A stretch of DNA of 40,531 bases from Candidatus Helarchaeota archaeon (lineage in GTDB: Archaea > Asgardarchaeota > Lokiarchaeia > Helarchaeales > RDOG01), in assembly GCA_019058315.1 (NCBI GenBank), contig JAHPZH010000010.1, positions 1-40,531 of the forward strand. Reading direction: 5' to 3'. A model generated the notes under the pieces. It saw only the letters and a list, made by a program, of their open reading frames with translations, was not told the origin of the DNA and did not search any database. Position 1 is the stretch's first letter. Each line of letters opens with the position of its first letter. Shown here piece after piece: positions 4,567-16,353 of the stretch. The translations under genes were made by a program, and so were the position numbers.

Positions 4567-4610
4567 AAATACAAAAATATAAAAAAAGTTGAATAAATTT
4601 TTCCTAGATT

Positions 4611-5390
4611 TCATTTTAGATAGAATTTGTTTATATATTTTGAAAGCTCTACAAAAAGTTCCTTAATTTCTTGAGTTGATTTCTTACCTTTGCTAAAAAT
4701 TTCTACTTTATATTTTGATATCTCTTCAGCTTCGTCTTTAGGTTTTAATGAAAAAATAGCCTCTTTTTTAGTTATTTTTGGCTCATTAAGAGCAGTTTTT
4801 ATTTTTGTAATTTGTTTTGAAACAATTTTTTTATTAACTGCTTTATCTATATAATCTAGAATAGAATGTGCAATATCCCATGTAATTTGGGGATATATAA
4901 ACCTGCCAGATCCTACGACATCAACGTGATAAAACTGAATATCTTGATAAATAATTTGATCAACAAAAATTTCATTTTCTACCATTTGTTCTGCTATTTT
5001 CTTTACATTTTTCTTATTTATTGATGGCAAAATCATTCCAATAGCTCTTCCTATTTCAACAAGTCTTCTTTCTTCCTCTGACGGTTCGAAATAATTGGGA
5101 GCTGGTGCACCCAAAATCATGTTACCTGGAACAATTTTACCGGGTTTATCCAAAGCTAATCTTTGATATTTTTTAAATTCTTTAATAATATTCACGAAAT
5201 TTTCAATATTTGTAATTTTTTTTAGATCTTCTAAGAATTTCGCATCAACTTGTGGCGGAATTACTACGGGACCTTCGCGTTCTCTAGATTCCTTATAAAT
5301 TTCCTCTAATGATTTTTCCTTTTTGGATTTGCCCATTTTTAACACTTCAATTTTTTTTATTAAGAATTTTTTAGATTCGTTATTTAACAC
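4611..5390 (-). CDS. Hypothetical soluble protein
   Basis: 259-aa ORF with host-like composition and no recognisable family motif. Probable start at MGKSKK (about 5336). Confidence 0.6.
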   Translation of the reverse strand: MLNNESKKFLIKKIEVLKMGKSKKEKSLEEIYKESREREGPVVIPPQVDAKFLEDLKKITNIENFVNIIKEFKKYQRLALDKPGKIVPGNMILGAPAPNYFEPSEEERRLVEIGRAIGMILPSINKKNVKKIAEQMVENEIFVDQIIYQDIQFYHVDVVGSGRFIYPQITWDIAHSILDYIDKAVNKKIVSKQITKIKTALNEPKITKKEAIFSLKPKDEAEEISKYKVEIFSKGKKSTQEIKELFVELSKYINKFYLK

Positions 5391-5445
5391 TTAATAAATT
5401 ATTTGCTGGTTTTTTTATTTTCCTAAATTTTAAAATCAGAAAGAA

Positions 5446-6711
5446 TTAACCATTAGTAGCTTGCACACCATGAACAAAAATCATTACTCTCTGCCCAACA
5501 TTTCTACCTTGGTCGTAATCATCAGCAAAAGAACACGATACATTCCACCCAACTTTTGCAAAAAAGGAGGGAACATTTTTTACATCAAGACCCCATTTAA
5601 AATGCTTAGAAAAAGAATCCTTTAGAAGTTCATTTCTAATAATACGATTAGGAATCCATCTTGATTGGTGCATAATATCCACGAAGATTTGACTATTTTG
5701 TGCACTTATCTCAGCTGTTTTTGAAAGTAGAGTGACAATTTTTTCTTGTTCCATATAGTAGACAAGACCTTCTAAAACCCAAAAAGTGGGAGTATTACTC
5801 GAAAATCCGCTATTTAAAAGAATGGAGGACCATTTGGGTTCAGAGATATCTGCAGAAATACGTATAAGATCACATAATGGTTGTTTGTCTTGCAAAATCT
5901 TTTCTTTATAGTGGATAACAATGGGGAGATCAATCTCGAATAATTTATGGAGATTTTTTTGGATTGGTGTGAATCGATAAGCACGCGTGTCCAAACCAGC
6001 CCCTAATAGAACGATCTGGGATTTCGAATGTGCATCGCACCAAGGTTTTAACAAGTTTTCTTCAATGTAATATGAACGAACGATTGGATAATCCATTTCG
6101 GAGTAACGTATATGCTCTTTAAGATATGAAGACAAATCACCAGCGAGTTTTTCTGCGAATGGATCAATAATAAGAGGATTATCACGCTTGTATTCTTGAG
6201 CACGGTAATATGCCATAAGACGGGATGTGAAAGGTATACTAGCACTCTTATTATCCATACTTTGTTTGTTTTTAGATGAATTATCATCCATTTTCTGATT
6301 TTTCAGCCCTAATTGTTCGCTTTTATCTATATAAGTTCCTTTACCACTTAAAGAAGCTAAAGCTCTAGCTAGCTCCATATATGCAAAACCTACAATTCCG
6401 TCTGGTTCAATACGAACAATGATTGTTCTCTTGTCATCTTTAGCTCCTACAATATGACCTTCACCCTTAATGGAGGTTGCAATTAATCTTTCGTTTGAAC
6501 AGAGTCTGATTATGTATCTAATTCCAGAAAACATAATGGGATTAGTCTTCATAGAAGACCAGTTAGAAATTAATTTGTTGATATCTGCTTTTATATCCCA
6601 ATTATCTGTTGAATAAATAATATCAGCTTTTCCCTCAATTAAAGCAACTGAAATAACATAAGGTAAAGCTTGCTTTAGTTTAGATAAAATAGCTTCGTAA
6701 TTTACGGACAT
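5446..6711 (-). CDS. Fusion of an Asgard profilin-like domain and an LCM-family (leucine carboxyl methyltransferase-like) SAM-dependent methyltransferase
   Basis: N-terminal 120 aa show YSTDNWDI, SGIRYII and ERLIATSIKGEGHIVG, the pattern of Loki profilins. The C-terminal part shows RAQE..DPFAEKLAG, QIVLLGAGLDTRAYR, FEIDLP and WVLEGLVYY. Confidence 0.8.
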   Translation of the reverse strand: MSVNYEAILSKLKQALPYVISVALIEGKADIIYSTDNWDIKADINKLISNWSSMKTNPIMFSGIRYIIRLCSNERLIATSIKGEGHIVGAKDDKRTIIVRIEPDGIVGFAYMELARALASLSGKGTYIDKSEQLGLKNQKMDDNSSKNKQSMDNKSASIPFTSRLMAYYRAQEYKRDNPLIIDPFAEKLAGDLSSYLKEHIRYSEMDYPIVRSYYIEENLLKPWCDAHSKSQIVLLGAGLDTRAYRFTPIQKNLHKLFEIDLPIVIHYKEKILQDKQPLCDLIRISADISEPKWSSILLNSGFSSNTPTFWVLEGLVYYMEQEKIVTLLSKTAEISAQNSQIFVDIMHQSRWIPNRIIRNELLKDSFSKHFKWGLDVKNVPSFFAKVGWNVSCSFADDYDQGRNVGQRVMIFVHGVQATNG

Positions 6712-6727
6712 TTATAGATAAGACCTT

Positions 6728-7183
6728 TCAATCATCTTCTATGGGCAAACCAATAATTACTTTTTTATCAGTGAAAAAACTATCAGACATTGAATCATGA
6801 GTAGAAATTTCTTCTACAATTGCACCTTCTTTTGAACTGAAAGTATGATTAGTACCTGGTTCTAGATTATAATGGTCACCAGGTTTTAGTGTTATAGTTT
6901 TATCAGGCAATGTTAAGATCACTTCACCTTTATGGCAGAAAAAAGTCTCTTTTTTCTTTTTATGATGGTGTTCAGGACATCGTTGTCCAGGTAAAAGAAT
7001 TAACCACTTGGAACAGTATTCGGGTTCATTAATTCTTGTAACCAAAGCCATACCAATTTGTTCAAAATTATTGAAACCATAAGTCGCAATTCGAAATTGT
7101 ACATCTGGTAAAATAGGAATACCGGCTTCAGCTAATTTCTTTCGAGCTATTTCCTCGTATTTCTTAAATTCAGATCTCTTCAT
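6728..7183 (-). CDS. D-lyxose ketol-isomerase family cupin
   Basis: YCSKWLILLPGQRCPEHHH..KKETF, LKPGD..LEPGTNHTF and AIVEEIST, typical of the D-lyxose isomerase cupin family. Confidence 0.8.
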   Translation of the reverse strand: MKRSEFKKYEEIARKKLAEAGIPILPDVQFRIATYGFNNFEQIGMALVTRINEPEYCSKWLILLPGQRCPEHHHKKKKETFFCHKGEVILTLPDKTITLKPGDHYNLEPGTNHTFSSKEGAIVEEISTHDSMSDSFFTDKKVIIGLPIEDD

Positions 7184-7367
7184 ATTAACACCAGAAATAC
7201 AAAAAGCGGAATTATATATATTATAAATGTCAAATTTAGTTTTAAATCATTTATATATCTTAAAAATTCCTTATGATTCAAAAAAGTGATATTATAAAAA
7301 TATTGAATTATTATAAATATCAACTTTGGATTGATTAAAAAAAACATTAAAGGAAAGAGGATTTAAA

Positions 7368-7979
7368 ATGGATGAGATTAAATCTTCAATAATAAGAGCC
7401 AAAGAATGTTTTGAGAAGAAACAGTATGAAAACTTGATTCAAATTTTAGAGAGTATTATTCAGAAAAATCGAAATCTTCTTGACGAAGAGGAATCTAAAA
7501 CAGATTTAGGAGAAATGTATTTACTTTTTGCTAAATCCTTTTTAGCTCTTAATAAATTAGATGAATCTTTAAAACATGCAAATGACTGCCTTCACCTAGC
7601 AAAAAATTGTAAATTTTTCTCCTTACAGGCGAAAACATTAAGAATTCTTGGTAGCATTTACTCTCAGAAAGGAAATCATTTAAAGAGCCTAGAATTATTG
7701 AGAAAATCACTACAACTTGAACAGAAGATCGGGGATAAAATCGGTGAAGCCTATGCCTTGTTTGAATTAGGAATTGAAGAAGCAGATGGCGAGGAATTAA
7801 ATGAAAGCATAGAACATTTAAAGCATGCTGTAAAAATTTTCAAAAATTTGGATCGGGAAAAAGATGCACAAACGGTTCAAAAAGAATTAACCATAATTTT
7901 AGAAGAGATGGATGAAGATAAGTGGCTAGAGGAAAAGATACCAAAAAAATTCCGTGAAAAGAAAGGTATGAAACTATAA
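7368..7979 (+). CDS. Tetratricopeptide repeat protein
   Basis: TPR helix pairs (AKTLRILGSIYSQKG, GDKIGEAYALFELG). Purine-rich AAGAGGA lies upstream. Confidence 0.85.
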   Translation: MDEIKSSIIRAKECFEKKQYENLIQILESIIQKNRNLLDEEESKTDLGEMYLLFAKSFLALNKLDESLKHANDCLHLAKNCKFFSLQAKTLRILGSIYSQKGNHLKSLELLRKSLQLEQKIGDKIGEAYALFELGIEEADGEELNESIEHLKHAVKIFKNLDREKDAQTVQKELTIILEEMDEDKWLEEKIPKKFREKKGMKL

Positions 7980-7988
7980 TTGTGAATT

Positions 7989-8018
7989 TTAAGCTTCTTT
8001 CTCTTTTGGATTTTTTTA
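7989..8018 (+). terminator. Putative archaeal T-rich terminator between convergent genes
   Basis: Pyrimidine/T tract (cttctttctcttttggattttttt) immediately after the TPR stop codon. Confidence 0.35.
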
Positions 8019-8351
8019 TTATTTACCAGCTTTGGAGAGCTCCAGTGCACTACCTTGAGTGCAATAATTAACCCATCTAAGACTCATTTGTTTGCTAATT
8101 GGACATTGTCCACAAAGACACCCTTTTTCCTCCTTTATCAGTGAACTCTTACCTATTGAACAAAATGCAAGATTTGTTTCGCCTGTCCCCTCATAGCTTG
8201 GACATTTTCCACAATAATCTTTACAAATATACTTCACTTGATCAAAGGCATCTCTTTTTTGTTTCTCCGTCATTTTATCCATAATTTTAATCTTTTCTTC
8301 AAATGGGAGATTCTTGAAGTTCTCTTCGAGGTCTGACATTAATTTCACCAT
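8019..8351 (-). CDS. DUF2769-like Cys-rich metal-binding protein
   Basis: YCGKCPSY...AFCSIGKS...GCLCGQCP...NYCTQG cysteine pattern. Confidence 0.75.
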   Translation of the reverse strand: MVKLMSDLEENFKNLPFEEKIKIMDKMTEKQKRDAFDQVKYICKDYCGKCPSYEGTGETNLAFCSIGKSSLIKEEKGCLCGQCPISKQMSLRWVNYCTQGSALELSKAGK

Positions 8352-8465
8352 GATTTTACATTCTTTGTATTATATTTAGAAATTAAATTTTTATTACTTA
8401 TTATTTCCATTCTTAATAATTGAAATAATGTTCAAATGTTTAAGTAAAATATAAATAATTGGTTC

Positions 8466-8840
8466 TCACATTAAAGCTCTTATTTTTTTATAAAAGTCAA
8501 GTAATGCAATTCGAATTAAGGGCAAATTTAGATCTTCTCCTCCTATCCCAATGAAAGTTAAAGTTTGTTCTACTCCTTCTTTTGAAATTTTTGAGATTAT
8601 AATAATTCCATTTGGTCCTTCAAGAACATAGTCTTTTAAATTTCCCATTTCTAAGAAATTCGAAAATTGCTGGAATGTTGCTTCAACATTGAATATTTCC
8701 ATGATGATTTTTTCTTTTAAATCGGCTACTAGTGTGGTTGCCAAGACTTTCCCATCAGGGTATGAGATTAAGAATGTCCCAGTAATTCCAGTAATTTGTT
8801 CCAAATCTCGAAGATATTTTTCCATTTGTCCTATATTCAT
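8466..8840 (-). CDS. Roadblock/LC7 (LAMTOR2/MglB-like) domain protein 2
   Basis: GITGTFLISYPDGKVLAT, GNLKDYVLEGPNGIIII and LNLPLIRIAL fit the roadblock pattern. The start was reassigned to ATG 8840, 4 bp after the upstream stop, because the longer ORF overlaps the upstream roadblock gene. Confidence 0.8.
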   Translation of the reverse strand: MNIGQMEKYLRDLEQITGITGTFLISYPDGKVLATTLVADLKEKIIMEIFNVEATFQQFSNFLEMGNLKDYVLEGPNGIIIISKISKEGVEQTLTFIGIGGEDLNLPLIRIALLDFYKKIRALM

Positions 8841-8844
8841 GTTT

Positions 8845-9210
8845 TCATCCCATAATTTTTTCGATTTTAATTGAGGCATTTCTAATTTCAAATGCACATG
8901 ATGGAATATTAGCGTATTTTTCAAGAAAAGTTACGATAATTGAATTTCGACCCGCATTCATGATAATGAAATTACCCTCATCACTATCAACAATCACTCT
9001 TTCTAAATTGGATTTGCGAAATAGTTTGTATAAATGATCTAAAGTCAACTTTACTGAAGTAACAAGACCGCTTGCCATTACAACCTCGATCTCTTCTTCC
9101 CAAGTTGTCGCAATTGGAATTCCATCAGGATATGAAATAATTACACTTCCGAGAACTCCTGTCGTCTTACTTAGTTCCTTTAATATAATAGTTAATTTTT
9201 CTTCGGACAT
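8845..9210 (-). CDS. Roadblock/LC7 (LAMTOR2/MglB-like) domain protein 1
   Basis: GVLGSVIISYPDGIPIAT, LERVIVDSDEGNFIIMNAG and ANIPSCAFEIR give a canonical 120-aa roadblock domain. Confidence 0.9.
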   Translation of the reverse strand: MSEEKLTIILKELSKTTGVLGSVIISYPDGIPIATTWEEEIEVVMASGLVTSVKLTLDHLYKLFRKSNLERVIVDSDEGNFIIMNAGRNSIIVTFLEKYANIPSCAFEIRNASIKIEKIMG

Positions 9211-9261
9211 TCATTCAAACCTTTTCTTTTTTTTTAAACTTAAATTGTTTAATTTTTAGAA

Positions 9262-10923
9262 TTATTTATAAAATTTTTTCAAATTGTCTTTGAAAAAATT
9301 GATCGAAACCCATCTAACAAGCTCTTTCAAATCAAAACCCCCATCATGTGGTGCTGCTCTTTTATGTAAATTCATTTCACCAGGCAACGTAATAGTACAA
9401 CCTCCCATTAGTGTCAACAAATCTGAAAAATCTTGAATTTTTTTCATCTGACCAATAATTGAGAATGTTTGAAGAAATTTTTGGATTTTCATTTCTTGGA
9501 TCCAATTTTTAATTTGATCTAATTCATTAAAAGGAACAACCATGATAAACCGATTAATACAAGCATCAATATCAGACTTATTAGGCATTCTTCTTAAATA
9601 TAGAACAGTCCAGTCAGGATTTTGAGTTAAAGCCTTACCTTTAGGAATAAAAAGTTTGCCCCAACCCTTATTTTCTATTTTAAATGTATAAAAATCTCTT
9701 TTATTTAAGGTTTCAATTGCTTCATACTCAGTCATTTTGGTCCTAGCAAGCTGTTTGCTCATTTCTCCTAGTTCTAGACTCAATAATTTTGCGAACCCAA
9801 GAGCTGTGTTAAATGTTATCGTTCTTCTTAACATATCCATGCTCTCTGACATCAACGAGATTATTTGTGAATCCACATTTGAATTTGTTTCTTGATTTGG
9901 TATTGAATTGTCATTTATTTGATTCATGAGATTTGTCATTTCACTTCTAATATTGGAATCATCTTCACATAAATTATTTGTGTTCTTTTCTTGAACAAAT
10001 ACAATTCGAGGAGAACAGCAAGCATATTGGTTCCAAATGGAGACATCCTTAGCGATTTCTCTAGCCACGAGCGTTAAATATTCCCGTTTATTTAGAAAAT
10101 CTTCGGTAATAATTGAAAAACTGAATTTCGGACCATGTTCAATGAACTTAACCCCATAATACGCTGATAATTTTTTTAATTGCCTAACAGATTCTAATCC
10201 ACCCCAAGCTATAACTACATCAATGAGTTCTTCATTGAATAAAAATTGGTAGATATTTTTTTCCCTACCTCTCCAATACATGACTGCTAATTCTCTTGCT
10301 AAGTTTCTATCAATATCGTAAATTGTTTGAACAAATCTGACTGCAAAATAGGGTTCTCCTGAAGCGAGCTTAATAAGATTAAGATTTTTTGTTAGGATAC
10401 CAAATAAAATACTTATAGGTCCAATTACAAATGCATTTCCAGCTAAGCTGTGAAGGATTAAACCTCTTGGTTGAGCATGTAAAAGAACATCATTTTTTAC
10501 AACCCAATCATCTAGAGAATTTATATCCCCAAATTGTTCAGATAAAAAACCAATGAGATGATCTTTTTGAAACAGTTCTAATACGTGTTCTAATTCAAAA
10601 TTAATCAATGCCTTTGATTGTCCCGTCACTAATGAAAGAACTTCTTCTGCTTCTTTTTTAAATTCAAAATTAGGGTTAGTCCATATATCATGAAGTTGGT
10701 GTAATATTTCTATTGTTTCTAATATCGGTCTGTCATGTGCTTGCTTTTTATATTTATTTAAGTAAATTACTGCAAGCTTTATTTCTCTAGAGCTTATAAC
10801 TGGATAGCTAATTTCAATTATTTTATCTCTTCTCTTGATTTTTAGGGTATCATCTACTCTATCTATATATAATCCCCCAACATATGAAGGTAAATTAATT
10901 TTAAGAGAAATATCAATCACCAA
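9262..10923 (-). CDS. luxC: Acyl-CoA reductase, LuxC family (ALDH superfamily)
   Basis: QPRGLILHSLAGN, VVIAWGG, IEHGPKFSF, NQYACCSP (catalytic Cys region), FLQT and PHDG..L..LVRW. Confidence 0.88.
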   Translation of the reverse strand: MVIDISLKINLPSYVGGLYIDRVDDTLKIKRRDKIIEISYPVISSREIKLAVIYLNKYKKQAHDRPILETIEILHQLHDIWTNPNFEFKKEAEEVLSLVTGQSKALINFELEHVLELFQKDHLIGFLSEQFGDINSLDDWVVKNDVLLHAQPRGLILHSLAGNAFVIGPISILFGILTKNLNLIKLASGEPYFAVRFVQTIYDIDRNLARELAVMYWRGREKNIYQFLFNEELIDVVIAWGGLESVRQLKKLSAYYGVKFIEHGPKFSFSIITEDFLNKREYLTLVAREIAKDVSIWNQYACCSPRIVFVQEKNTNNLCEDDSNIRSEMTNLMNQINDNSIPNQETNSNVDSQIISLMSESMDMLRRTITFNTALGFAKLLSLELGEMSKQLARTKMTEYEAIETLNKRDFYTFKIENKGWGKLFIPKGKALTQNPDWTVLYLRRMPNKSDIDACINRFIMVVPFNELDQIKNWIQEMKIQKFLQTFSIIGQMKKIQDFSDLLTLMGGCTITLPGEMNLHKRAAPHDGGFDLKELVRWVSINFFKDNLKKFYK

Positions 10924-10974
10924 AATAAAAGAATTAATATAAATTTAATATCCTTCATAAATTTGGTAATTGTA

Positions 10975-12114
10975 TTACTCTCCAGCTAAATCTGCTATCA
11001 TTGCTCCACAACCTTTTGCATCGGCTCCGACAGCTCTGCTAACATTTTGGAAGGTTTTTCCATATCTACCGCATTTACACTTCTTTTCATTAATGAAATC
11101 TGCAACATCGTCTAACAAGATACTGATACCTGGCCAACTAGTGGATAATGGATTTATTATATTCACTAATCCTTTTTCACCTTCTTTTACTGGTTCCATT
11201 GTTTGAGGATCTCGAAAAATTATATCTCCCCAAGGTGGTACATGAAATAGTAATTCACTACATTCATGAAAAGACAAATCACTTTCAGTTAATCCATAAT
11301 TATCTCTAACTCTATTTAATGGAACACCGAGAATATCACTAATCACCTTTCTGAATTGGTCCTTACTAATTGCTTTGCCTGCAAATGTCTTCCAGCCTCC
11401 ACCAAAACCAGCTGCAAAGCTATTTTTTAAATTGAATTTTTTTCCCGTTTTCTCATGCATTTTAGTTAGAGTTAAGAATGCAAGTGCTGGACTACCACCA
11501 AACATAAAGACCTCTTGAGTTTTGGATGCTTCTATAAGATTTTGCATGGTTAGCTGTATATCAATTGGGATTTTCCCTTCCTCTTTTTTTTCTGTCATTA
11601 AGTATACGGCGCTTTCGCACATTCCTTCTGTCCAGACTTTCATTCCTACAGAAAATGTGAGCCCTTGTATGAACTTTAAAGAAGGTCCAAAGACAACTCC
11701 TTTTTTAAATCCTTCTATTTCAAATAAAAGTCTAGCATCTTTTAAACCGAAATCATAATATCTCTTGTCTGATAAGACGTCTCTTCCAACAAAACTTGGG
11801 TCACCTGATGTACCACTGCTTCTGTACCATGTGACGATTTGATCTTCGGGAATTGAAATTAAACCCTTATATAAATTATATGATTGTTTAAAAGATTTTG
11901 AGGTTATCCAAGGAATTTTGACGATATCGTCATATTCTTTTAAATCTTTTGAAGGGTTAAAATCATTTTTTCGGCAAATCTTTTTAAAGGGTGTACAATT
12001 CTTGAAATGATGTTTTGTTGCCTTTTTTATAACTTCAAATCTCATATCTCGAATTTTATCTGGATTCTGGTGATAGGGGTCCTCAATTTTGAGAAAATCT
12101 TCTATTTCTACCAT
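10975..12114 (-). CDS. luxE: Acyl-protein synthetase, LuxE family
   Basis: IPWI..KSFK, SSGTSG adenylation loop, GGGWK, RDNYGLTE, FHVPPW, IRDP-like IFRDP, SWPGISILLDD and a C-terminal R...A.AKGC Cys. A GAGGTGA Shine-Dalgarno-like site lies upstream. Confidence 0.9.
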   Translation of the reverse strand: MVEIEDFLKIEDPYHQNPDKIRDMRFEVIKKATKHHFKNCTPFKKICRKNDFNPSKDLKEYDDIVKIPWITSKSFKQSYNLYKGLISIPEDQIVTWYRSSGTSGDPSFVGRDVLSDKRYYDFGLKDARLLFEIEGFKKGVVFGPSLKFIQGLTFSVGMKVWTEGMCESAVYLMTEKKEEGKIPIDIQLTMQNLIEASKTQEVFMFGGSPALAFLTLTKMHEKTGKKFNLKNSFAAGFGGGWKTFAGKAISKDQFRKVISDILGVPLNRVRDNYGLTESDLSFHECSELLFHVPPWGDIIFRDPQTMEPVKEGEKGLVNIINPLSTSWPGISILLDDVADFINEKKCKCGRYGKTFQNVSRAVGADAKGCGAMIADLAGE

Positions 12115-12150
12115 AACTTCACCTCATTTGTTTGATAATTAATTTTTTAA

Positions 12151-13464
12151 TTAACCTCCCACCAAAGTAATAATAGACATATTATTCAAGTGATACCCTC
12201 CAGGAGTTGAGTTTTTAATCTCTCCAGACGAGCCGAAACCAAAAATTGGTATATCTTTTCCTATTTCCTCCCTAATGACATTTATCTCGTCTATAATTCT
12301 ATCCCCGAGCAAAGAAAGCCTTGCCGAGCAGTCAAAATAAATCAAAAATTTTGGATCTTCAACATTCTCCAATGCCATTTTTACTGCTCTTCTAGCTGAT
12401 TCTAATATTATTTCCCCTGTCGCTTCACAAATTTCTAACTCTAATTTTTTCTCCACCATTTTTGGAGGCAAAACGGTAAAAATCGAGTCGTACTGGGGAT
12501 CTGTTACCGCCACATATGGATGTATACTATCTTCATCTTCTAAACCTAATAACGATAAAAAATTTATGTATCCTTGATGTTTTAGCTCATTTAAAGCCTC
12601 TTTTTCATGCCCCATGACTTCAAGTAATCCGTCTAGCGCTTTTTTTCCATTTATACCCATGAGAAATGGTCCAACATTTTTTGTAATTTGAATTCTTTTC
12701 CCTGTACGCCTTACACCAATATCATAACCAACTCCAAACTTATGGTTATTAGAAGAAAGCATACAAGCAATAACTGAATCGTAATTCACGGTTTCATTGA
12801 AAAATTCAAAAGTTTTTACACCACTGAGATCTCCACACTGAGTTCCAACAATTGGACAATTTAGACCATTTTCTACTAAATATTCCACTAATTCTTGAGT
12901 AATTGGAAAACCTTTTCCCTCACTAGCAAAATTTCGCATGTTACTCCAAAAAATTCTCGAAACCAAGCTACTGAAAACACGAGCACCAAAACTATCGAAT
13001 CTTTTCTGTTGAGCCAATACTTCAGGAGGGATCCTATAGCCGGAAGTAAAGAGTAAGATTACTTCATTTAAAGTTTTGTTAAGATGTGATTTATAGCTTT
13101 TAATAATATCTTGTCCTATTTTTTCGTAGTTATCCCTTGATTTTGTCCAAATTTGAGGTTCAATAACATCAATATCTCCTCCTAATAAGAGAATTCCAAC
13201 TGCTCGGATTGAAACATTATTATTTATTATTATTCCTATAGATCCACCACCAAGTAATGGAGTATTTGGAATCTCTTTTTTTATGCCTTTTAGAACATTT
13301 TCCAAATTGTATATATTTGCAGCTGATAAATCTATACCTATAATCGCTAATTTTGGAGTTCCAGAAAAATCTTTCAAAGCTTCCTTGGTTGCTTCAATAC
13401 CAGCTAAATAAGAATTAGAATTTGTTGAAAAACCGACACTTGCCTCAAGCATATATTCACACAC
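12151..13464 (-). CDS. FIST N + FIST C domain signal-transduction protein
   Basis: AGIEATKEAL, PLLGGGSIG, INGKKALD, FDCSAR, PIFGFGSSGEI and NNMSII are FIST hallmarks. There is no output domain. Confidence 0.85.
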   Translation of the reverse strand: MCEYMLEASVGFSTNSNSYLAGIEATKEALKDFSGTPKLAIIGIDLSAANIYNLENVLKGIKKEIPNTPLLGGGSIGIIINNNVSIRAVGILLLGGDIDVIEPQIWTKSRDNYEKIGQDIIKSYKSHLNKTLNEVILLFTSGYRIPPEVLAQQKRFDSFGARVFSSLVSRIFWSNMRNFASEGKGFPITQELVEYLVENGLNCPIVGTQCGDLSGVKTFEFFNETVNYDSVIACMLSSNNHKFGVGYDIGVRRTGKRIQITKNVGPFLMGINGKKALDGLLEVMGHEKEALNELKHQGYINFLSLLGLEDEDSIHPYVAVTDPQYDSIFTVLPPKMVEKKLELEICEATGEIILESARRAVKMALENVEDPKFLIYFDCSARLSLLGDRIIDEINVIREEIGKDIPIFGFGSSGEIKNSTPGGYHLNNMSIITLVGG

Positions 13465-13653
13465 CAGAGGTTAAAAATTAGTATTTTCTTATATTTATAT
13501 TGTGGTTAAATTTGATAAACCTTTTTAGTTTTTTAATCAACATTTCTACTTAAATGTTTGTAATTTATAAAATAAAACCACTAATATTATTCAAAATTTT
13601 TATAGAAATAAAAAAAAATTTAAACAGTGTTGATTAATTGATTTTTCAATACA

Positions 13654-14430
13654 TTAAGCTTTCTTAATATTCTTTAAAAGATTATTTGCAAGTGTTTTTA
13701 CGCTTAAATTCGAATTCTTCGTGAGTTCCCTTATTTTTTGTTTTGCATTAATTATTAATTCTTTGTTTTTTTTCCCAATTTTATTATATATAGACAATAA
13801 CGTGGTGATTAAAGGAATATTGTCTGAATTTAAGTCCTCAAGGAAATTTTGTTCAAATTCTTTCATTATAGATGGATCTTCTTCACCAATAACTCCAATT
13901 AGTATCAGGATTTTTCTTTGAATTTTTTGGTTCTTCTCTCGCAAATATATTTGCTTAAGCGTTGATATCATAGGGATTACTAAGTTAATATTCCTTTTGG
14001 CTAATGTTATTAATAAATCAATTGATTGGCTTTGAATAAGTTCGTTATTTTGATTTAATGCAAATATAATTGGTTTTAATGCTTCTTGAAGTGCGTCTGG
14101 ATCTGTTTCGAATATATCTTCTAATGTATCCAATGCATCTTCTCTTTCTTCATCTTCGATTCTAAACGGCTCCTCCATAATTACCGATTTAAAATCTTGA
14201 AATGCTACTGCTACTTCTTTTTCATCATATACATGATTCCATTCTTCCTCTCCCATATACCAGCTTACAATATATTCTCCTGAACTTATCTTTATTATTG
14301 ATTTTCCTTGTTTTATTTCTGGATAAAATTGTCCATTTCGAATACCATCATCATGAATATAATCATCTAGCACTTCCCCTTTTTCTTTAGCTTTTTTTAA
14401 ATCCTCAGGAAGTAAAGTGTATTCTTTCAT
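13654..14430 (-). CDS. Protein with an unknown N-terminal domain and C-terminal HEAT/ARM repeats
   Basis: Helical repeats of the type REDALDTL, LNQNNELIQSQSIDLL, LNSDNIPLITTLL and SNLSVKTLA. Confidence 0.65.
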   Translation of the reverse strand: MKEYTLLPEDLKKAKEKGEVLDDYIHDDGIRNGQFYPEIKQGKSIIKISSGEYIVSWYMGEEEWNHVYDEKEVAVAFQDFKSVIMEEPFRIEDEEREDALDTLEDIFETDPDALQEALKPIIFALNQNNELIQSQSIDLLITLAKRNINLVIPMISTLKQIYLREKNQKIQRKILILIGVIGEEDPSIMKEFEQNFLEDLNSDNIPLITTLLSIYNKIGKKNKELIINAKQKIRELTKNSNLSVKTLANNLLKNIKKA

Positions 14431-14517
14431 TTGAAGTTGACACTGGTTTTTTATTAAGATAATAAAGAAATAATGTAATTTAAAATATTTTGAAATAAAT
14501 AAAAAAAAGATTATAAA

Positions 14518-15399: not shown

Positions 15400-16353
15400 T
15401 TATTTAAGACCTTTTATTTTCTCATTTATTTCCTCCGCCCTTTCTTTCAAGACTTGCAAATCATTAAGTTTAAGTCCGCCTGCTTTGATTTGCCCTTCTA
15501 TTAATTCTAAGCTTTTAATAAGTTTTTTTAATTTCACACTTTTACAATATTTTATTAATGGTCCAACTCCTTTCTCATATATTTCATTATCTTTTTTTGA
15601 TAAAGGATTATAGTCCAATTCTATTGTATTTAATTGTTCCAAATTGCCTAATTGCTCCGGAAGAGTCGTCAAATTATTACCAGTCAAAGCTAGAAAACTA
15701 AGCGATTTTAGGTCACCAAACGACTCTGGGAGAGACGTTAACTGATTACCATTTAAATATAATTCTTTGAGTGAAGTAAGTTTACCAAAGGATTCCGGGA
15801 GAGTCGTTAACTGGTTATTATCGATATATAGTTTTTGGAGTGATTTCAAGTTGCCAAAGAATTCTGGGAGAATCGTAAACTTATTTTGACTCAAAATAAG
15901 TAGATGGAGTGATTTAAACCCTTCAAACGACTCCGGCAGAGTTTTTAATTTATTACTAGCCAAATATAGGATTTCAAGCGATTTTAGATTCCCAAAAGAT
16001 TCCGGGAGAGTCATCAACTTATTACTACTCAAATTTAGAGAATTTATCGATTTTAGGTTAATGAGGGACTCTGGGAAAGGTGTTAACTTGTTATGACTCA
16101 AACTTAGATAAGTGAGTGATTTTAAGGTGCTAAGCCCCTCCGGGAGAGTTGATAACTGATTATCAGTTAAATTTAGTTCTTGGAGTGATTTTAATTCAAG
16201 AATTGGCTCTGGCAGAGTTACTAATCTTTTGGAAGTTAAATTAATATAGGTTACATGCCCATTCTTAATCTTGAAATCATCATCTTTCAAAGAATATTTT
16301 CTCTTTAATGTTTCGAAAGTTTTTTTCTCATGCTCATCGATGATTTCGACCAT
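15400..16353 (-). CDS. Leucine-rich repeat protein (about 9-10 repeats of 23 aa)
   Basis: Repeated LxLxxNxLxxLPESFGxLKSL units, an NPL...G...IKY C-cap and a short helical tail. Confidence 0.95.
   Translation of the reverse strand: MVEIIDEHEKKTFETLKRKYSLKDDDFKIKNGHVTYINLTSKRLVTLPEPILELKSLQELNLTDNQLSTLPEGLSTLKSLTYLSLSHNKLTPFPESLINLKSINSLNLSSNKLMTLPESFGNLKSLEILYLASNKLKTLPESFEGFKSLHLLILSQNKFTILPEFFGNLKSLQKLYIDNNQLTTLPESFGKLTSLKELYLNGNQLTSLPESFGDLKSLSFLALTGNNLTTLPEQLGNLEQLNTIELDYNPLSKKDNEIYEKGVGPLIKYCKSVKLKKLIKSLELIEGQIKAGGLKLNDLQVLKERAEEINEKIKGLK

What the first reader, a model, noticed from the sequence alone, without database searches (positions are those of the whole stretch)
8466..13464. FIST - LuxE - LuxC - roadblock - roadblock: candidate undescribed acyl/aldehyde signalling system in an Asgard archaeon
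Seen: five co-oriented genes with gaps of 36, 51, 51 and 4 bp, and no luxA/B or luxD in the window. Known: LuxE adenylates a fatty acid and holds it on a C-terminal Cys, LuxC reduces the acyl group to an aldehyde, FIST domains are ligand/heme sensory modules, and roadblock dimers are scaffolds or regulators of small GTPases (MglB, Ragulator). Inference: the cell may make an acyl-thioester, aldehyde or acylated protein under control of a stand-alone FIST sensor and pass it to a roadblock pair. That would link lipid chemistry to a Ragulator-like adaptor. I know of no description of this gene combination, but I cannot search for one.
Basis: partly seen in the sequence, partly recalled or inferred. 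Interest (0 to 1): 0.85.

Follow-up and report, generated by a model that had tools for sequence, protein, structure and literature searches.

The report
FIST-roadblock-wired acid-to-aldehyde enzyme module
An Asgard (Lokiarchaeia-type) archaeon keeps a bioluminescence-style enzyme pair that turns a carboxylic acid into an aldehyde next to a FIST "sensor" protein and two roadblock proteins, and the same partnership survives several gene rearrangements in about twenty related genomes, so it is a real, undescribed functional module whose purpose is still untested.

Summary
Five minus-strand genes (FIST, LuxE, LuxC, roadblock, roadblock paralogue) lie 36, 51, 51 and 4 bp apart. No luciferase, LuxD, KaiC or GTPase gene is on the contig.

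The linkage is not chance. In 400 Asgard genomes, the orthologues of this LuxC and this FIST occur in the same roughly 20 genomes. All 18 genomes whose contigs reach far enough also carry the roadblock pair, in at least four gene orders. Most lineages add a one-domain gelsolin and a HEAT-solenoid protein.

The LuxE and LuxC catalytic cysteines and the adenylation motif are invariant. The FIST-linked LuxCs form one clade that carries a clade-specific insert of about 45-60 residues. A co-fold model supports a FIST-Robl1-Robl2 complex (score 0.86, best control 0.37).

More distant Asgard FISTs also sit beside a roadblock gene, there with a KaiC-like ATPase and a Ras-family GTPase. FIST plus roadblock is therefore the old core, and LuxE/LuxC is one of its alternative partners.

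This scan had already noted KaiC-roadblock-FIST modules, with or without LuxE/LuxC, on other DNA (DPANN, Altiarchaeota, Hodarchaeales). I found no paper describing the combination.

The signalling reading is plausible. Acylation of the roadblocks and a Ragulator analogy are unsupported.

The parts
12151..13464 (-). Stand-alone FIST protein (FIST N and FIST C domains). The likely true start is the ATG at 13452.
   Evidence: Pfam PF08495 E 4e-17 and PF10442 E 6e-12. 13 orthologues at 34-68% identity. AF2 model pLDDT 86.6, best solved fold match FBXO22 FIST. The co-fold model places it on the roadblock pair.
10975..12114 (-). LuxE-type acyl-protein synthetase: an adenylating enzyme with a C-terminal acyl-carrying cysteine.
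   Evidence: Pfam PF04443 E 8e-42. Full-length match to LuxE of PDB 7XC6, E 4e-28, with the SSGTSG motif and the C-terminal KGC aligned. G101-S107 and C369 are invariant in 16 orthologues. A GAGGTGA ribosome-binding site lies upstream.
9262..10923 (-). LuxC-type acyl-thioester reductase (aldehyde-forming).
   Evidence: Pfam PF05893 E 8e-79. Match to LuxC of 7XC6, E 7e-25, with the catalytic Cys aligned. The block around W297, N298, Q299, A301, C302, S304, P305 and R306 is invariant in 17 orthologues. Member of a single FIST-linked clade.
9853..9984 (-). Low-complexity Asn/Ser-rich insert just after the catalytic-Cys strand of LuxC. It ends in a conserved Met/Ser motif.
   Evidence: Present, with variable sequence, in all 17 aligned FIST-linked LuxCs (about 45 residues here, about 60 in most), and followed by invariant M358 and S361. 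The sister LuxCs without FIST (CR_4, Cohnella) and 7XC6 LuxC are about 90-120 residues shorter, and the 7XC6 alignment breaks at this point.
8845..9210 (-). Roadblock/LC7 protein 1 (Robl1).
   Evidence: Pfam PF03259 E 4e-6. 12 orthologues. Adjacent to the module in every arrangement. Residues 16-18, 71 and 97-114 lie in the modelled interface with FIST.
8466..8840 (-). Roadblock paralogue 2 (Robl2), short form lacking the C-terminal helical domain of most orthologues.
   Evidence: No Pfam hit. Its profile matches the Robl1 family, probability 96.8%. Orthologues are usually 310-338 aa, with a Pro/Glu-rich linker and a conserved C-terminal domain. Replacing this chain drops the co-fold score to 0.25.
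13654..14430 (-). HEAT-repeat protein, 258 aa, upstream of FIST. It is an accessory member in this lineage and probably a separate transcript.
   Evidence: Orthologue in the same position in two relatives (L034 at 44% identity, L100) but not in L101. Weak Adaptin_N hit. Its protein-atlas neighbours are mostly HEAT-repeat families.
13465..13653 (-). AT-rich spacer of 189 bp with a T9 run after the HEAT gene and TATA-like boxes before FIST. This is the likely start of the FIST-LuxE-LuxC-Robl transcription unit.
   Evidence: Read directly from the sequence. Inference only, with no transcript data.

Best explanation
The five genes are one version of a conserved accessory module of Lokiarchaeia-type Asgard archaea.

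Enzymatic half (inferred from intact catalytic residues):
- LuxE adenylates a carboxylic acid, probably a fatty acid, using ATP.
- It carries the acyl group as a thioester on its C-terminal Cys369.
- It hands the acyl group to Cys302 of LuxC, which reduces it with NAD(P)H to a free aldehyde. No CoA is needed, as in the LuxCE fatty-acid reductase of luminous bacteria.

Second half (inferred from conserved linkage and a co-fold model): the FIST protein binds a Robl1-Robl2 roadblock heterodimer. FIST plus roadblock is an older archaeal regulatory pair. Elsewhere it is wired to a KaiC-like ATPase and a Ras-family GTPase. Here it is wired to the aldehyde-forming enzymes.

Most likely working model (untested): the FIST-roadblock complex either controls the LuxE/LuxC pair or reads its substrate or product. 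It then relays that state to scaffold partners, which are a HEAT protein here and a gelsolin plus a HEAT-solenoid protein in most lineages. The clade-specific LuxC insert is a candidate docking arm.
For: Real genes and families.

Catalytic competence:
- The LuxE SSGTSG motif and C-terminal KGC, and the LuxC catalytic Cys, align with PDB 7XC6.
- These residues are invariant in 16-17 orthologues at about 35% identity.

Linkage:
- LuxC orthologues (E below 1e-100) and FIST orthologues (E below 1e-180) occur in the same roughly 20 of 400 Asgard genomes.
- The distribution is patchy within one family (18 of 135).
- 18 of 18 genomes with enough contig also carry both roadblock genes, while the flanking genes differ.
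- The set survives at least four arrangements: this window; Robl1 inverted in L100, L101 and G123; Robl1-Robl2-gelsolin-FIST-LuxE-LuxC with a convergent HEAT gene; and FIST-LuxE-Robl1-Robl2 in L102.
- The FIST-linked LuxCs form one clade (support 99/98) with a shared insert.

Specialised role: the same genome has a second LuxE-LuxC pair, distant in the tree, in a plainly metabolic operon with an acyl-CoA ligase and an Fe alcohol dehydrogenase and a nearby divergent phosphopantetheinyl-transferase gene. It has no FIST or roadblock. The nearest bacterial LuxE-LuxC pairs also lack FIST and roadblock.

Complex:
- The model supports binding of FIST to Robl1 plus Robl2: score 0.86, best of 3 controls 0.37. 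In calibration that mark was reached by 58 of 80 solved complexes and 2 of 110 mismatched pairs.
- Runs agree in at least 86% of contacts, and the partner's pLDDT is at least 87. The tool notes that its counts hold only roughly for own alignments and three chains.
- The FIST profile has no relative by sequence among solved structures, so the pass is unlikely to be from memory.

Older core: more distant FISTs in three other Asgard families lie directly after a roadblock gene, as KaiC-Robl-FIST-Ras GTPase-106 aa, or KaiC-Robl-FIST-MFS. One further contig of unnamed taxon places an ALDH plus AMP-binding pair divergently beside KaiC-AF0774-FIST.
Against: - There are no expression, biochemical or interaction data.
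- The substrate is unknown. Both enzymes score far below NCBI's equivalog cut-offs for the lux enzymes (120 against 550 bits, 122 against 750 bits), so 'fatty acid' is an extrapolation.
- The direction of information flow (FIST regulates the enzymes, or senses their product) is not constrained by any result.
- Residues in the modelled FIST-roadblock interface are no better conserved than the rest.
- The closest solved FIST fold (FBXO22) is a protein-recognition module, so FIST need not bind a small ligand.
- One roadblock gene is inverted in the nearest relatives, so strict co-transcription is not conserved.
- L102 shows FIST-LuxE-Robl-Robl with no LuxC in the next 5 kb.
Confidence: 0.55

Rival explanations
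1. Purely metabolic complex. FIST and the roadblock dimer are structural or substrate-delivery subunits of a lipid aldehyde or alcohol pathway, taking the place that LuxD has in the lux system. There is no signalling role.
For: LuxD is absent from the genome. The FIST fold also resembles Toblerone-fold enzymes that bind small cyclic molecules. FIST always directly precedes LuxE wherever both are seen.
Against: The same FIST-roadblock pairing occurs without any LuxE/LuxC, beside KaiC-like ATPases and Ras-family GTPases. The plainly metabolic LuxE-LuxC operon of the same genome, and the bacterial LuxE-LuxC pairs, need no FIST or roadblock. Gelsolin and HEAT partners are not metabolic.
Confidence: 0.2
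2. Protein lipidation. Acyl-LuxE or acyl-LuxC passes the acyl group to a roadblock, FIST, gelsolin or HEAT protein, anchoring a roadblock scaffold to the membrane as lipidated LAMTOR1 anchors Ragulator.
For: LuxE is by mechanism an acyl-protein synthetase with a swinging acyl-cysteine. FIST has an invariant Cys379 next to the modelled interface.
Against: No cysteine is conserved across both lineages in Robl1 or Robl2, and there is no N-terminal Met-Gly. FIST Cys379 and Arg382 are conserved in nearly all related FISTs compared, including the KaiC-linked ones without LuxE/LuxC, so they are general FIST features. The invariant catalytic Cys of LuxC points to reduction as the selected activity.
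Confidence: 0.1
3. Linkage without shared function. The genes travel together as a mobile or hitch-hiking island, and the roadblock pair serves an unlinked GTPase elsewhere in the genome.
For: The distribution is patchy (18 of 135 genomes in one family). IS605/TnpB-like genes flank the module in L101. One metagenome bin holds two copies, one of them close to another family's copy. Asgard GTPases are reported not to be generally encoded with their roadblock partners (PMC10933270).
Against: Joint presence and absence, persistence through at least four rearrangements at about 35% identity with unrelated flanks, and the co-fold result are hard to explain without selection for co-function.
Confidence: 0.1

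Closest known systems
LuxC-LuxE fatty-acid reductase of luminous bacteria (Photobacterium phosphoreum, PDB 7XC6)
   Same: Same two Pfam families, adjacent and in LuxE-then-LuxC order. The adenylation motif, the C-terminal acyl-carrying Cys of LuxE and the catalytic Cys of LuxC are aligned and invariant.
   Different: No LuxD and no adjacent luciferase. Scores are far below NCBI's equivalog cut-offs. LuxC carries a clade-specific insert of about 45-60 residues. It is encoded with FIST, two roadblock proteins and HEAT or gelsolin partners, which no bacterial relative examined has.
Archaeal KaiC-like ATPase / roadblock-fold (Pfam AF0774) / FIST gene modules. These were noted repeatedly by this scan. 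The KaiC-hub paper of Makarova, Galperin and Koonin (mBio 2017) was not held, so I could not read it.
   Same: A FIST gene glued to a roadblock-fold gene. In some lineages an adenylating enzyme plus ALDH/LuxC-like pair is also present.
   Different: No KaiC on this contig. There are two roadblock paralogues instead of one. HEAT is added here, and gelsolin plus a HEAT-solenoid protein in sister lineages.
MglA/MglB and the actinobacterial conservon (CvnA-D): sensor, roadblock protein and small GTPase (PMC4316618)
   Same: A roadblock-family protein encoded beside a presumed sensor. The FIST-roadblock pairs of other Asgard families do carry a Ras-family GTPase in the same operon.
   Different: No GTPase and no histidine kinase in this locus, and none consistently in its orthologues. 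The output here is an enzyme pair.
Eukaryotic FBXO22 FIST domain (PDB 8UA6, 8S7D)
   Same: Best solved structural match to the FIST model (Foldseek E 4e-9, probability 1.00, TM about 0.46-0.59). In the matched entries the FBXO22 chain is bound to a protein dimer (the BACH1 BTB dimer), and the modelled FIST here sits on a roadblock dimer.
   Different: No F-box. Sequence identity is about 12%. The partner is different. The resemblance is of fold, not of shown function.
NosP (bacterial FIST-domain haem NO sensor; from my own knowledge, not tested here)
   Same: A stand-alone FIST protein encoded next to the signalling proteins it controls.
   Different: No haem-binding evidence here, and the partners are roadblock proteins and enzymes rather than a histidine kinase.

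Membership tests
LuxE acyl-protein synthetase (PF04443) | Pfam model above the gathering score over the full length | tested here: met
   143.9 bits against a cut-off of 24.9, residues 3-374 on model positions 16-387 of 391.
LuxE acyl-protein synthetase (PF04443) | Adenylation motif (SSGTSG) and C-terminal acyl-accepting Cys | tested here: met
   Both align with LuxE of 7XC6. G101-S107 and G368-C369-G370 are invariant in 16 orthologues.
LuxE / LuxC of the lux operon (NCBIfam equivalogs NF052244, NF052251) | Score above the equivalog cut-off | tested here: not met
   LuxE 120 bits against 550. LuxC 122 bits against 750.
LuxC acyl-thioester reductase (PF05893) | Pfam model above the gathering score, and catalytic Cys present | tested here: met
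   265.8 bits against 21, in two stretches split by the insert. The Cys aligns with 7XC6 LuxC. C302 is invariant in 17 orthologues.
LuxC/LuxE enzymes | ATP- and NAD(P)H-dependent reduction of a fatty acid to an aldehyde | not testable with these tools
   Needs an enzyme assay.
Bacterial lux fatty-acid reductase system (LuxCDE with LuxAB) | LuxD acyltransferase and luciferase genes in the same cluster | tested here: not met
   PF02273 has no match in the genome (94% complete). All nine PF00296 matches are on other contigs.
FIST (PF08495 and PF10442) | Both FIST domains above the gathering score, and the FIST fold | tested here: met
   63.1 and 46.4 bits. The AF2 model (pLDDT 86.6) best matches the FBXO22 FIST domain.
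FIST as a ligand or haem sensor (NosP-like) | Binding of a small ligand or haem | not testable with these tools
   There is only a conserved Cys379/Arg382 motif, shared by nearly all related FISTs compared.
Roadblock/LC7 (PF03259) | Pfam model above the gathering score | tested here: met
   Robl1: 26.9 bits against 23. Robl2: no Pfam hit, but hhalign probability 96.8%, E 2.6e-10, against the Robl1 family.
Ragulator-Rag or MglB-MglA type roadblock-GTPase system | A cognate small GTPase encoded with, or bound by, the roadblock dimer | tested here: not met
   No GTPase match in the window, and none consistent in the orthologous loci. GTPases appear only in the distant KaiC-Robl-FIST operons.
Archaeal KaiC / roadblock-fold / FIST triad | KaiC-like ATPase gene adjacent to the roadblock and FIST genes | tested here: not met
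   No PF06745 match on contig C8. The roadblock-FIST adjacency itself is met.
Actinobacterial conservon (CvnA-D) | Histidine kinase, roadblock protein, DUF742 protein and GTPase | tested here: not met
   Only the roadblock component is present.

The most novel reading that the evidence does not exclude
The module is an Asgard-specific signalling route. A self-made aldehyde, or the acyl-enzyme state of LuxE/LuxC, is read by a FIST-roadblock complex. That complex couples it to cytoskeletal and membrane scaffolds: gelsolin and actin, and HEAT-solenoid proteins with a winged helix and a beta-sandwich. This would be a prokaryotic forerunner of lipid-metabolite control over roadblock scaffolds, in the closest relatives of eukaryotes.
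Probability: 0.15. Interest if true: 0.85.

Novelty: new variant of a known kind. Interest (0 to 1): 0.62.

Why it matters
Roadblock, gelsolin and HEAT-solenoid proteins count among the eukaryote-like proteins of Asgard archaea. Their partners are almost never readable from gene order. A published study notes that Asgard GTPases are generally not in operons with roadblock genes (PMC10933270).

This module is a rare exception. It is a conserved, rearrangement-proof neighbourhood that names concrete partners for two roadblock proteins and, in most lineages, for a gelsolin. All of the proteins are small and soluble and could be expressed and tested.

The module also extends a recurring archaeal theme, FIST plus roadblock, to a second kind of output: an ATP- and NAD(P)H-driven aldehyde-forming enzyme pair instead of an ATPase or GTPase. 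That suggests a general adaptor role for FIST-roadblock complexes. If the aldehyde is a signal rather than a lipid precursor, this would be a new type of archaeal second-messenger chemistry.

Tried and rejected
- RNA evidence: no RNA holder was listed for window 8400-14500, so co-transcription is untested.
- Literature: no paper holds LuxC + LuxE + Asgard, LuxE + LuxC + FIST, roadblock + 'FIST domain', acyl-protein synthetase + roadblock, or KaiC-like + archaea + signal transduction + FIST. The mBio 2017 KaiC-hub paper is not held, so I cannot say whether it lists this neighbourhood.
- HEAT homology: comparison of the window's 258-aa HEAT protein with the roughly 590-aa HEAT-solenoid protein of the sister lineages is inconclusive (hhalign probability 21%).
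- Missing partners: orthologues of that roughly 590-aa protein, and of the Robl2 C-terminal domain, are absent from the window's genome. Its gelsolin genes lie on other contigs.
- Interface conservation: the modelled FIST-roadblock interface is no more conserved than the rest, which is neutral.
- Acyl acceptor: no conserved cysteine was found in the roadblock proteins.
- FIST sequence search of solved structures found nothing.
- The word-index protein search returned only 10 FIST relatives because of its candidate cap. The exhaustive representative search was used instead.
- Bacterial LuxE-LuxC neighbourhoods (Cohnella, Sericytochromatia) gave no functional hint.
- The bacterial-type promoter and terminator scan was not run. 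I judged it unsuitable for an archaeon.


Full report
**1. The observation**

The five open frames exist as described, all on the minus strand:

| Gene | Coordinates | Length |
|---|---|---|
| FIST | 12151-13464 | 437 aa |
| LuxE | 10975-12114 | 379 aa |
| LuxC | 9262-10923 | 553 aa |
| Robl1 | 8845-9210 | 121 aa |
| Robl2 | 8466-8840 | 124 aa |

- The gaps are 36, 51, 51 and 4 bp.
- Pfam assigns FIST N and C domains, LuxE (E 8e-42), LuxC (E 8e-79, split into two stretches by an insert) and Robl_LC7 to Robl1.
- Robl2 has no Pfam hit. Its family profile matches the Robl1 family at 96.8% probability, so it is a divergent roadblock paralogue.
- The FIST start is more likely the ATG at 13452.
- A 189-bp AT-rich spacer separates FIST from an upstream 258-aa HEAT-repeat gene. 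It holds a T9 run and TATA-like boxes. LuxE has a GAGGTGA ribosome-binding site.
- The window is the whole contig C8 of a 5.8-Mb, 12-contig genome. No Bac_luciferase, LuxD or KaiC family match lies on it.
- Relatives are recorded as Promethearchaeota, and the closest as Candidatus Helarchaeota. The Asgard assignment therefore holds.

**2. The linkage is conserved**

I searched 400 Asgard genomes.
- Full-length orthologues of this LuxC (E below 1e-100, 34-60% identity) occur in about 20 genomes.
- Orthologues of this FIST (E below 1e-180) occur in the same set plus one incomplete genome.
- Within one family only 18 of 135 genomes have them, so the genes are gained and lost together.

I fetched up to 20 kb around each locus and clustered all ORFs.
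- The module genes are the only block shared among the loci. The flanks differ.
- All 18 genomes whose contig reaches past the core carry both roadblock genes.

The gene order differs between lineages:
- (a) This window: HEAT258, FIST, LuxE, LuxC, Robl1, Robl2.
- (b) Nearest relatives (FIST 67-75% identical; L100, L101, G123): the same order, but with Robl1 inverted.
- (c) Most Lokiarchaeial genera: Robl1, a long Robl2, a one-domain gelsolin, FIST, LuxE, LuxC, then a convergent protein of about 590 aa.
- (d) One contig: FIST, LuxE, Robl1, long Robl2.
- G143 lacks the gelsolin, and G138 has a permuted order.

A LuxC tree places all FIST-linked LuxCs in one clade (support 99/98). It splits into the window's type (100/100) and type (c) (100/99). 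Its sister group is a FIST-less pair from Lokiarchaeon CR_4 plus Cohnella. The association therefore arose once and has been kept through rearrangement at about 35% protein identity.

**3. The enzymes look active and specialised**

- The only close solved relatives are LuxC and LuxE of the Photobacterium phosphoreum complex 7XC6.
- The LuxE SSGTSG adenylation motif and its C-terminal Lys-Gly-Cys align with that structure. They are invariant in 16 orthologues.
- The LuxC catalytic cysteine lies in an invariant block around Trp-Asn-Gln, Ala-Cys and Ser-Pro-Arg in 17 orthologues.
- Both proteins fall far below NCBI's equivalog cut-offs. They are family members, not lux enzymes, and the substrate is open.
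- All FIST-linked LuxCs carry a low-complexity insert right after the catalytic strand (about 45 residues here, about 60 in most). It ends in a conserved Met/Ser motif. The FIST-less sister sequences are about 90-120 residues shorter.
- The same genome has a second, distantly related LuxE-LuxC pair. It sits in an operon with an acyl-CoA ligase and an Fe alcohol dehydrogenase, beside a divergent phosphopantetheinyl-transferase gene. That is an ordinary acid-to-alcohol context with no FIST or roadblock.
- Bacterial relatives have LuxE-LuxC only.

**4. FIST and the roadblocks**

- The FIST model is confident (pLDDT 86.6, pTM 0.87).
- Its best solved matches are the FIST domain of human FBXO22, in entries where that chain is bound to the BACH1 BTB dimer. 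Toblerone-fold cyclic-amide hydrolases follow.
- Co-folding Robl1, Robl2 and FIST gave scores of 0.86, 0.86 and 0.89, against a best control of 0.37.
- In calibration that mark was reached by 58 of 80 solved complexes and 2 of 110 mismatched pairs.
- The runs agree in at least 86% of contacts, and the partner's pLDDT is at least 87. The tool warns that these counts hold only roughly for own alignments and three chains.
- Replacing Robl2 dropped the score to 0.25.
- The FIST profile has no relative by sequence among solved structures, so memory of a known complex is unlikely.
- The result supports binding. It does not show it, and interface residues are not especially conserved.

**5. FIST plus roadblock is the older unit**

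- More distant FISTs (E about 1e-40 to 1e-67) in three other Asgard families all lie directly after a roadblock gene.
- Their operons read KaiC-like ATPase, roadblock, FIST, Ras-family GTPase and a 106-aa protein, or KaiC, roadblock, FIST and an MFS transporter.
- An exhaustive profile search found further intermediates. One contig, of unnamed taxon, places an ALDH plus AMP-binding pair divergently beside KaiC, AF0774 (PF27410) and FIST.
- LuxE/LuxC and KaiC/GTPase are thus alternative partners of one adaptor pair.
- I found this independently. The scan's earlier notes then showed that the same theme had been seen before on other DNA (DPANN, Altiarchaeota, Hodarchaeales).
- The FIST residues Cys379 and Arg382 are shared by nearly all these related FISTs. 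They say nothing specific about aldehyde sensing.

**6. Extra partners in sister lineages**

- The gelsolin is genuine. Its profile matches Asgard 2DGel3 (PDB 7C2H) at E 5e-12.
- The convergent protein of about 590 aa models as a 24-helix HEAT/ARM solenoid, a winged helix and a seven-strand beta domain (pLDDT 86.8).
- Its best natural matches are COPI and Integrator solenoids at low TM scores. I read that as a generic solenoid likeness.
- The window's lineage lacks both. It has a 258-aa HEAT protein upstream instead.
- Homology between the two HEAT proteins is unproven.

**7. Interpretation**

- Shown: real genes, family membership, intact catalytic residues, joint phyletic distribution, rearrangement-proof linkage, and a single LuxC clade with an insert.
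- Supported by a model only: the FIST-Robl1-Robl2 complex.
- Inferred: the enzymes make an aldehyde from a (fatty?) acid, and the FIST-roadblock complex regulates them or reads their substrate or product and relays it to scaffold proteins.
Neither roadblock family has a conserved cysteine.
- The Ragulator comparison fails on its defining GTPase.

**8. Novelty**

No paper in the searchable library holds the combinations tested. Tran et al. (PMC10933270) state that Asgard GTPases are generally not in operons with roadblock genes. I rate this a new variant of a known kind. It is a LuxCE-type carboxylate reductase wired to an undescribed FIST-roadblock adaptor, with Asgard-specific additions. Interest is moderately high, because every component can be tested in vitro.

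Noticed in passing
window 5446-6711 (-): A 421-aa protein joins an N-terminal Asgard-type profilin domain to a leucine carboxyl methyltransferase domain. The first 160 aa match solved Asgard profilin entries (5ZZA chain P at E 4e-10, 7PBH at E 3e-8). The methyltransferase domain is PF04072, E 9e-32. It lies 1.7 kb from the module.
   Followed up: partly
L105 (G000:C3:558000-577900), ORFs 4571-11163: The same genome has a second, distantly related LuxE-LuxC pair in a metabolic operon. An AMP-binding acyl ligase, an Fe alcohol dehydrogenase, LuxE and LuxC run in one direction, and a phosphopantetheinyl-transferase gene lies divergently upstream. There is no FIST or roadblock.
   Followed up: partly
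L091-L095 (for example L092:8205-11816): A five-gene operon in two other Asgard families: KaiC-like ATPase, roadblock, FIST, Ras-family GTPase and a 106-aa unknown protein. L090 has KaiC, roadblock, FIST and an MFS transporter.
   Followed up: partly
L040:14136-15152 (-) and orthologues (L037, L042-L044, L047, L048): In most lineages Robl2 is 310-338 aa: a roadblock domain, a Pro/Glu-rich low-complexity linker and a conserved C-terminal helical domain of about 90 aa with a motif of the form NIGTSLALFD. It has no Pfam hit. The domain is absent from the window's Robl2 and from its genome.
   Followed up: partly
L040:7249-9027 (+) and 13 orthologues (alignment A4): A protein of about 590 aa lies convergent with LuxC in the sister lineages. 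It has a HEAT/ARM solenoid, a winged helix and a beta-sandwich domain. Paralogues of about 975-990 aa sharing the N-terminal 330 aa occur in many other genomes of the same family.
   Followed up: partly
window 15400-16353 (-); L043:2256-3020; L101:1-1981; L040:15773-17317: Leucine-rich-repeat or Roc/Arf-type GTPase genes lie next to the module in several loci. The window has a 317-aa LRR protein. L043 has a 946-aa homologue. L101 has an LRR-TIR protein. L040 has a 514-aa Arf/Roc GTPase. This may only reflect how common these families are in Asgard genomes.
   Followed up: no
L036 and L046 (both from genome G143): One metagenome-assembled genome holds two copies of the module. The second LuxC groups tightly with that of a genome from another family (G274). 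This suggests lateral transfer or a mixed bin.
   Followed up: no
L075-L081, L086, L087 (for example L076:9941-12592): In several bacterial phyla LuxC is fused to a C-terminal AMP-binding (adenylating) domain, giving proteins of about 880-1100 aa, with a separate LuxE upstream.
   Followed up: partly
window 8019-8351 (-): A 110-aa DUF2769 protein (E 6e-13) lies 114 bp downstream of Robl2 on the same strand. It is not conserved with the module in the other loci.
   Followed up: no
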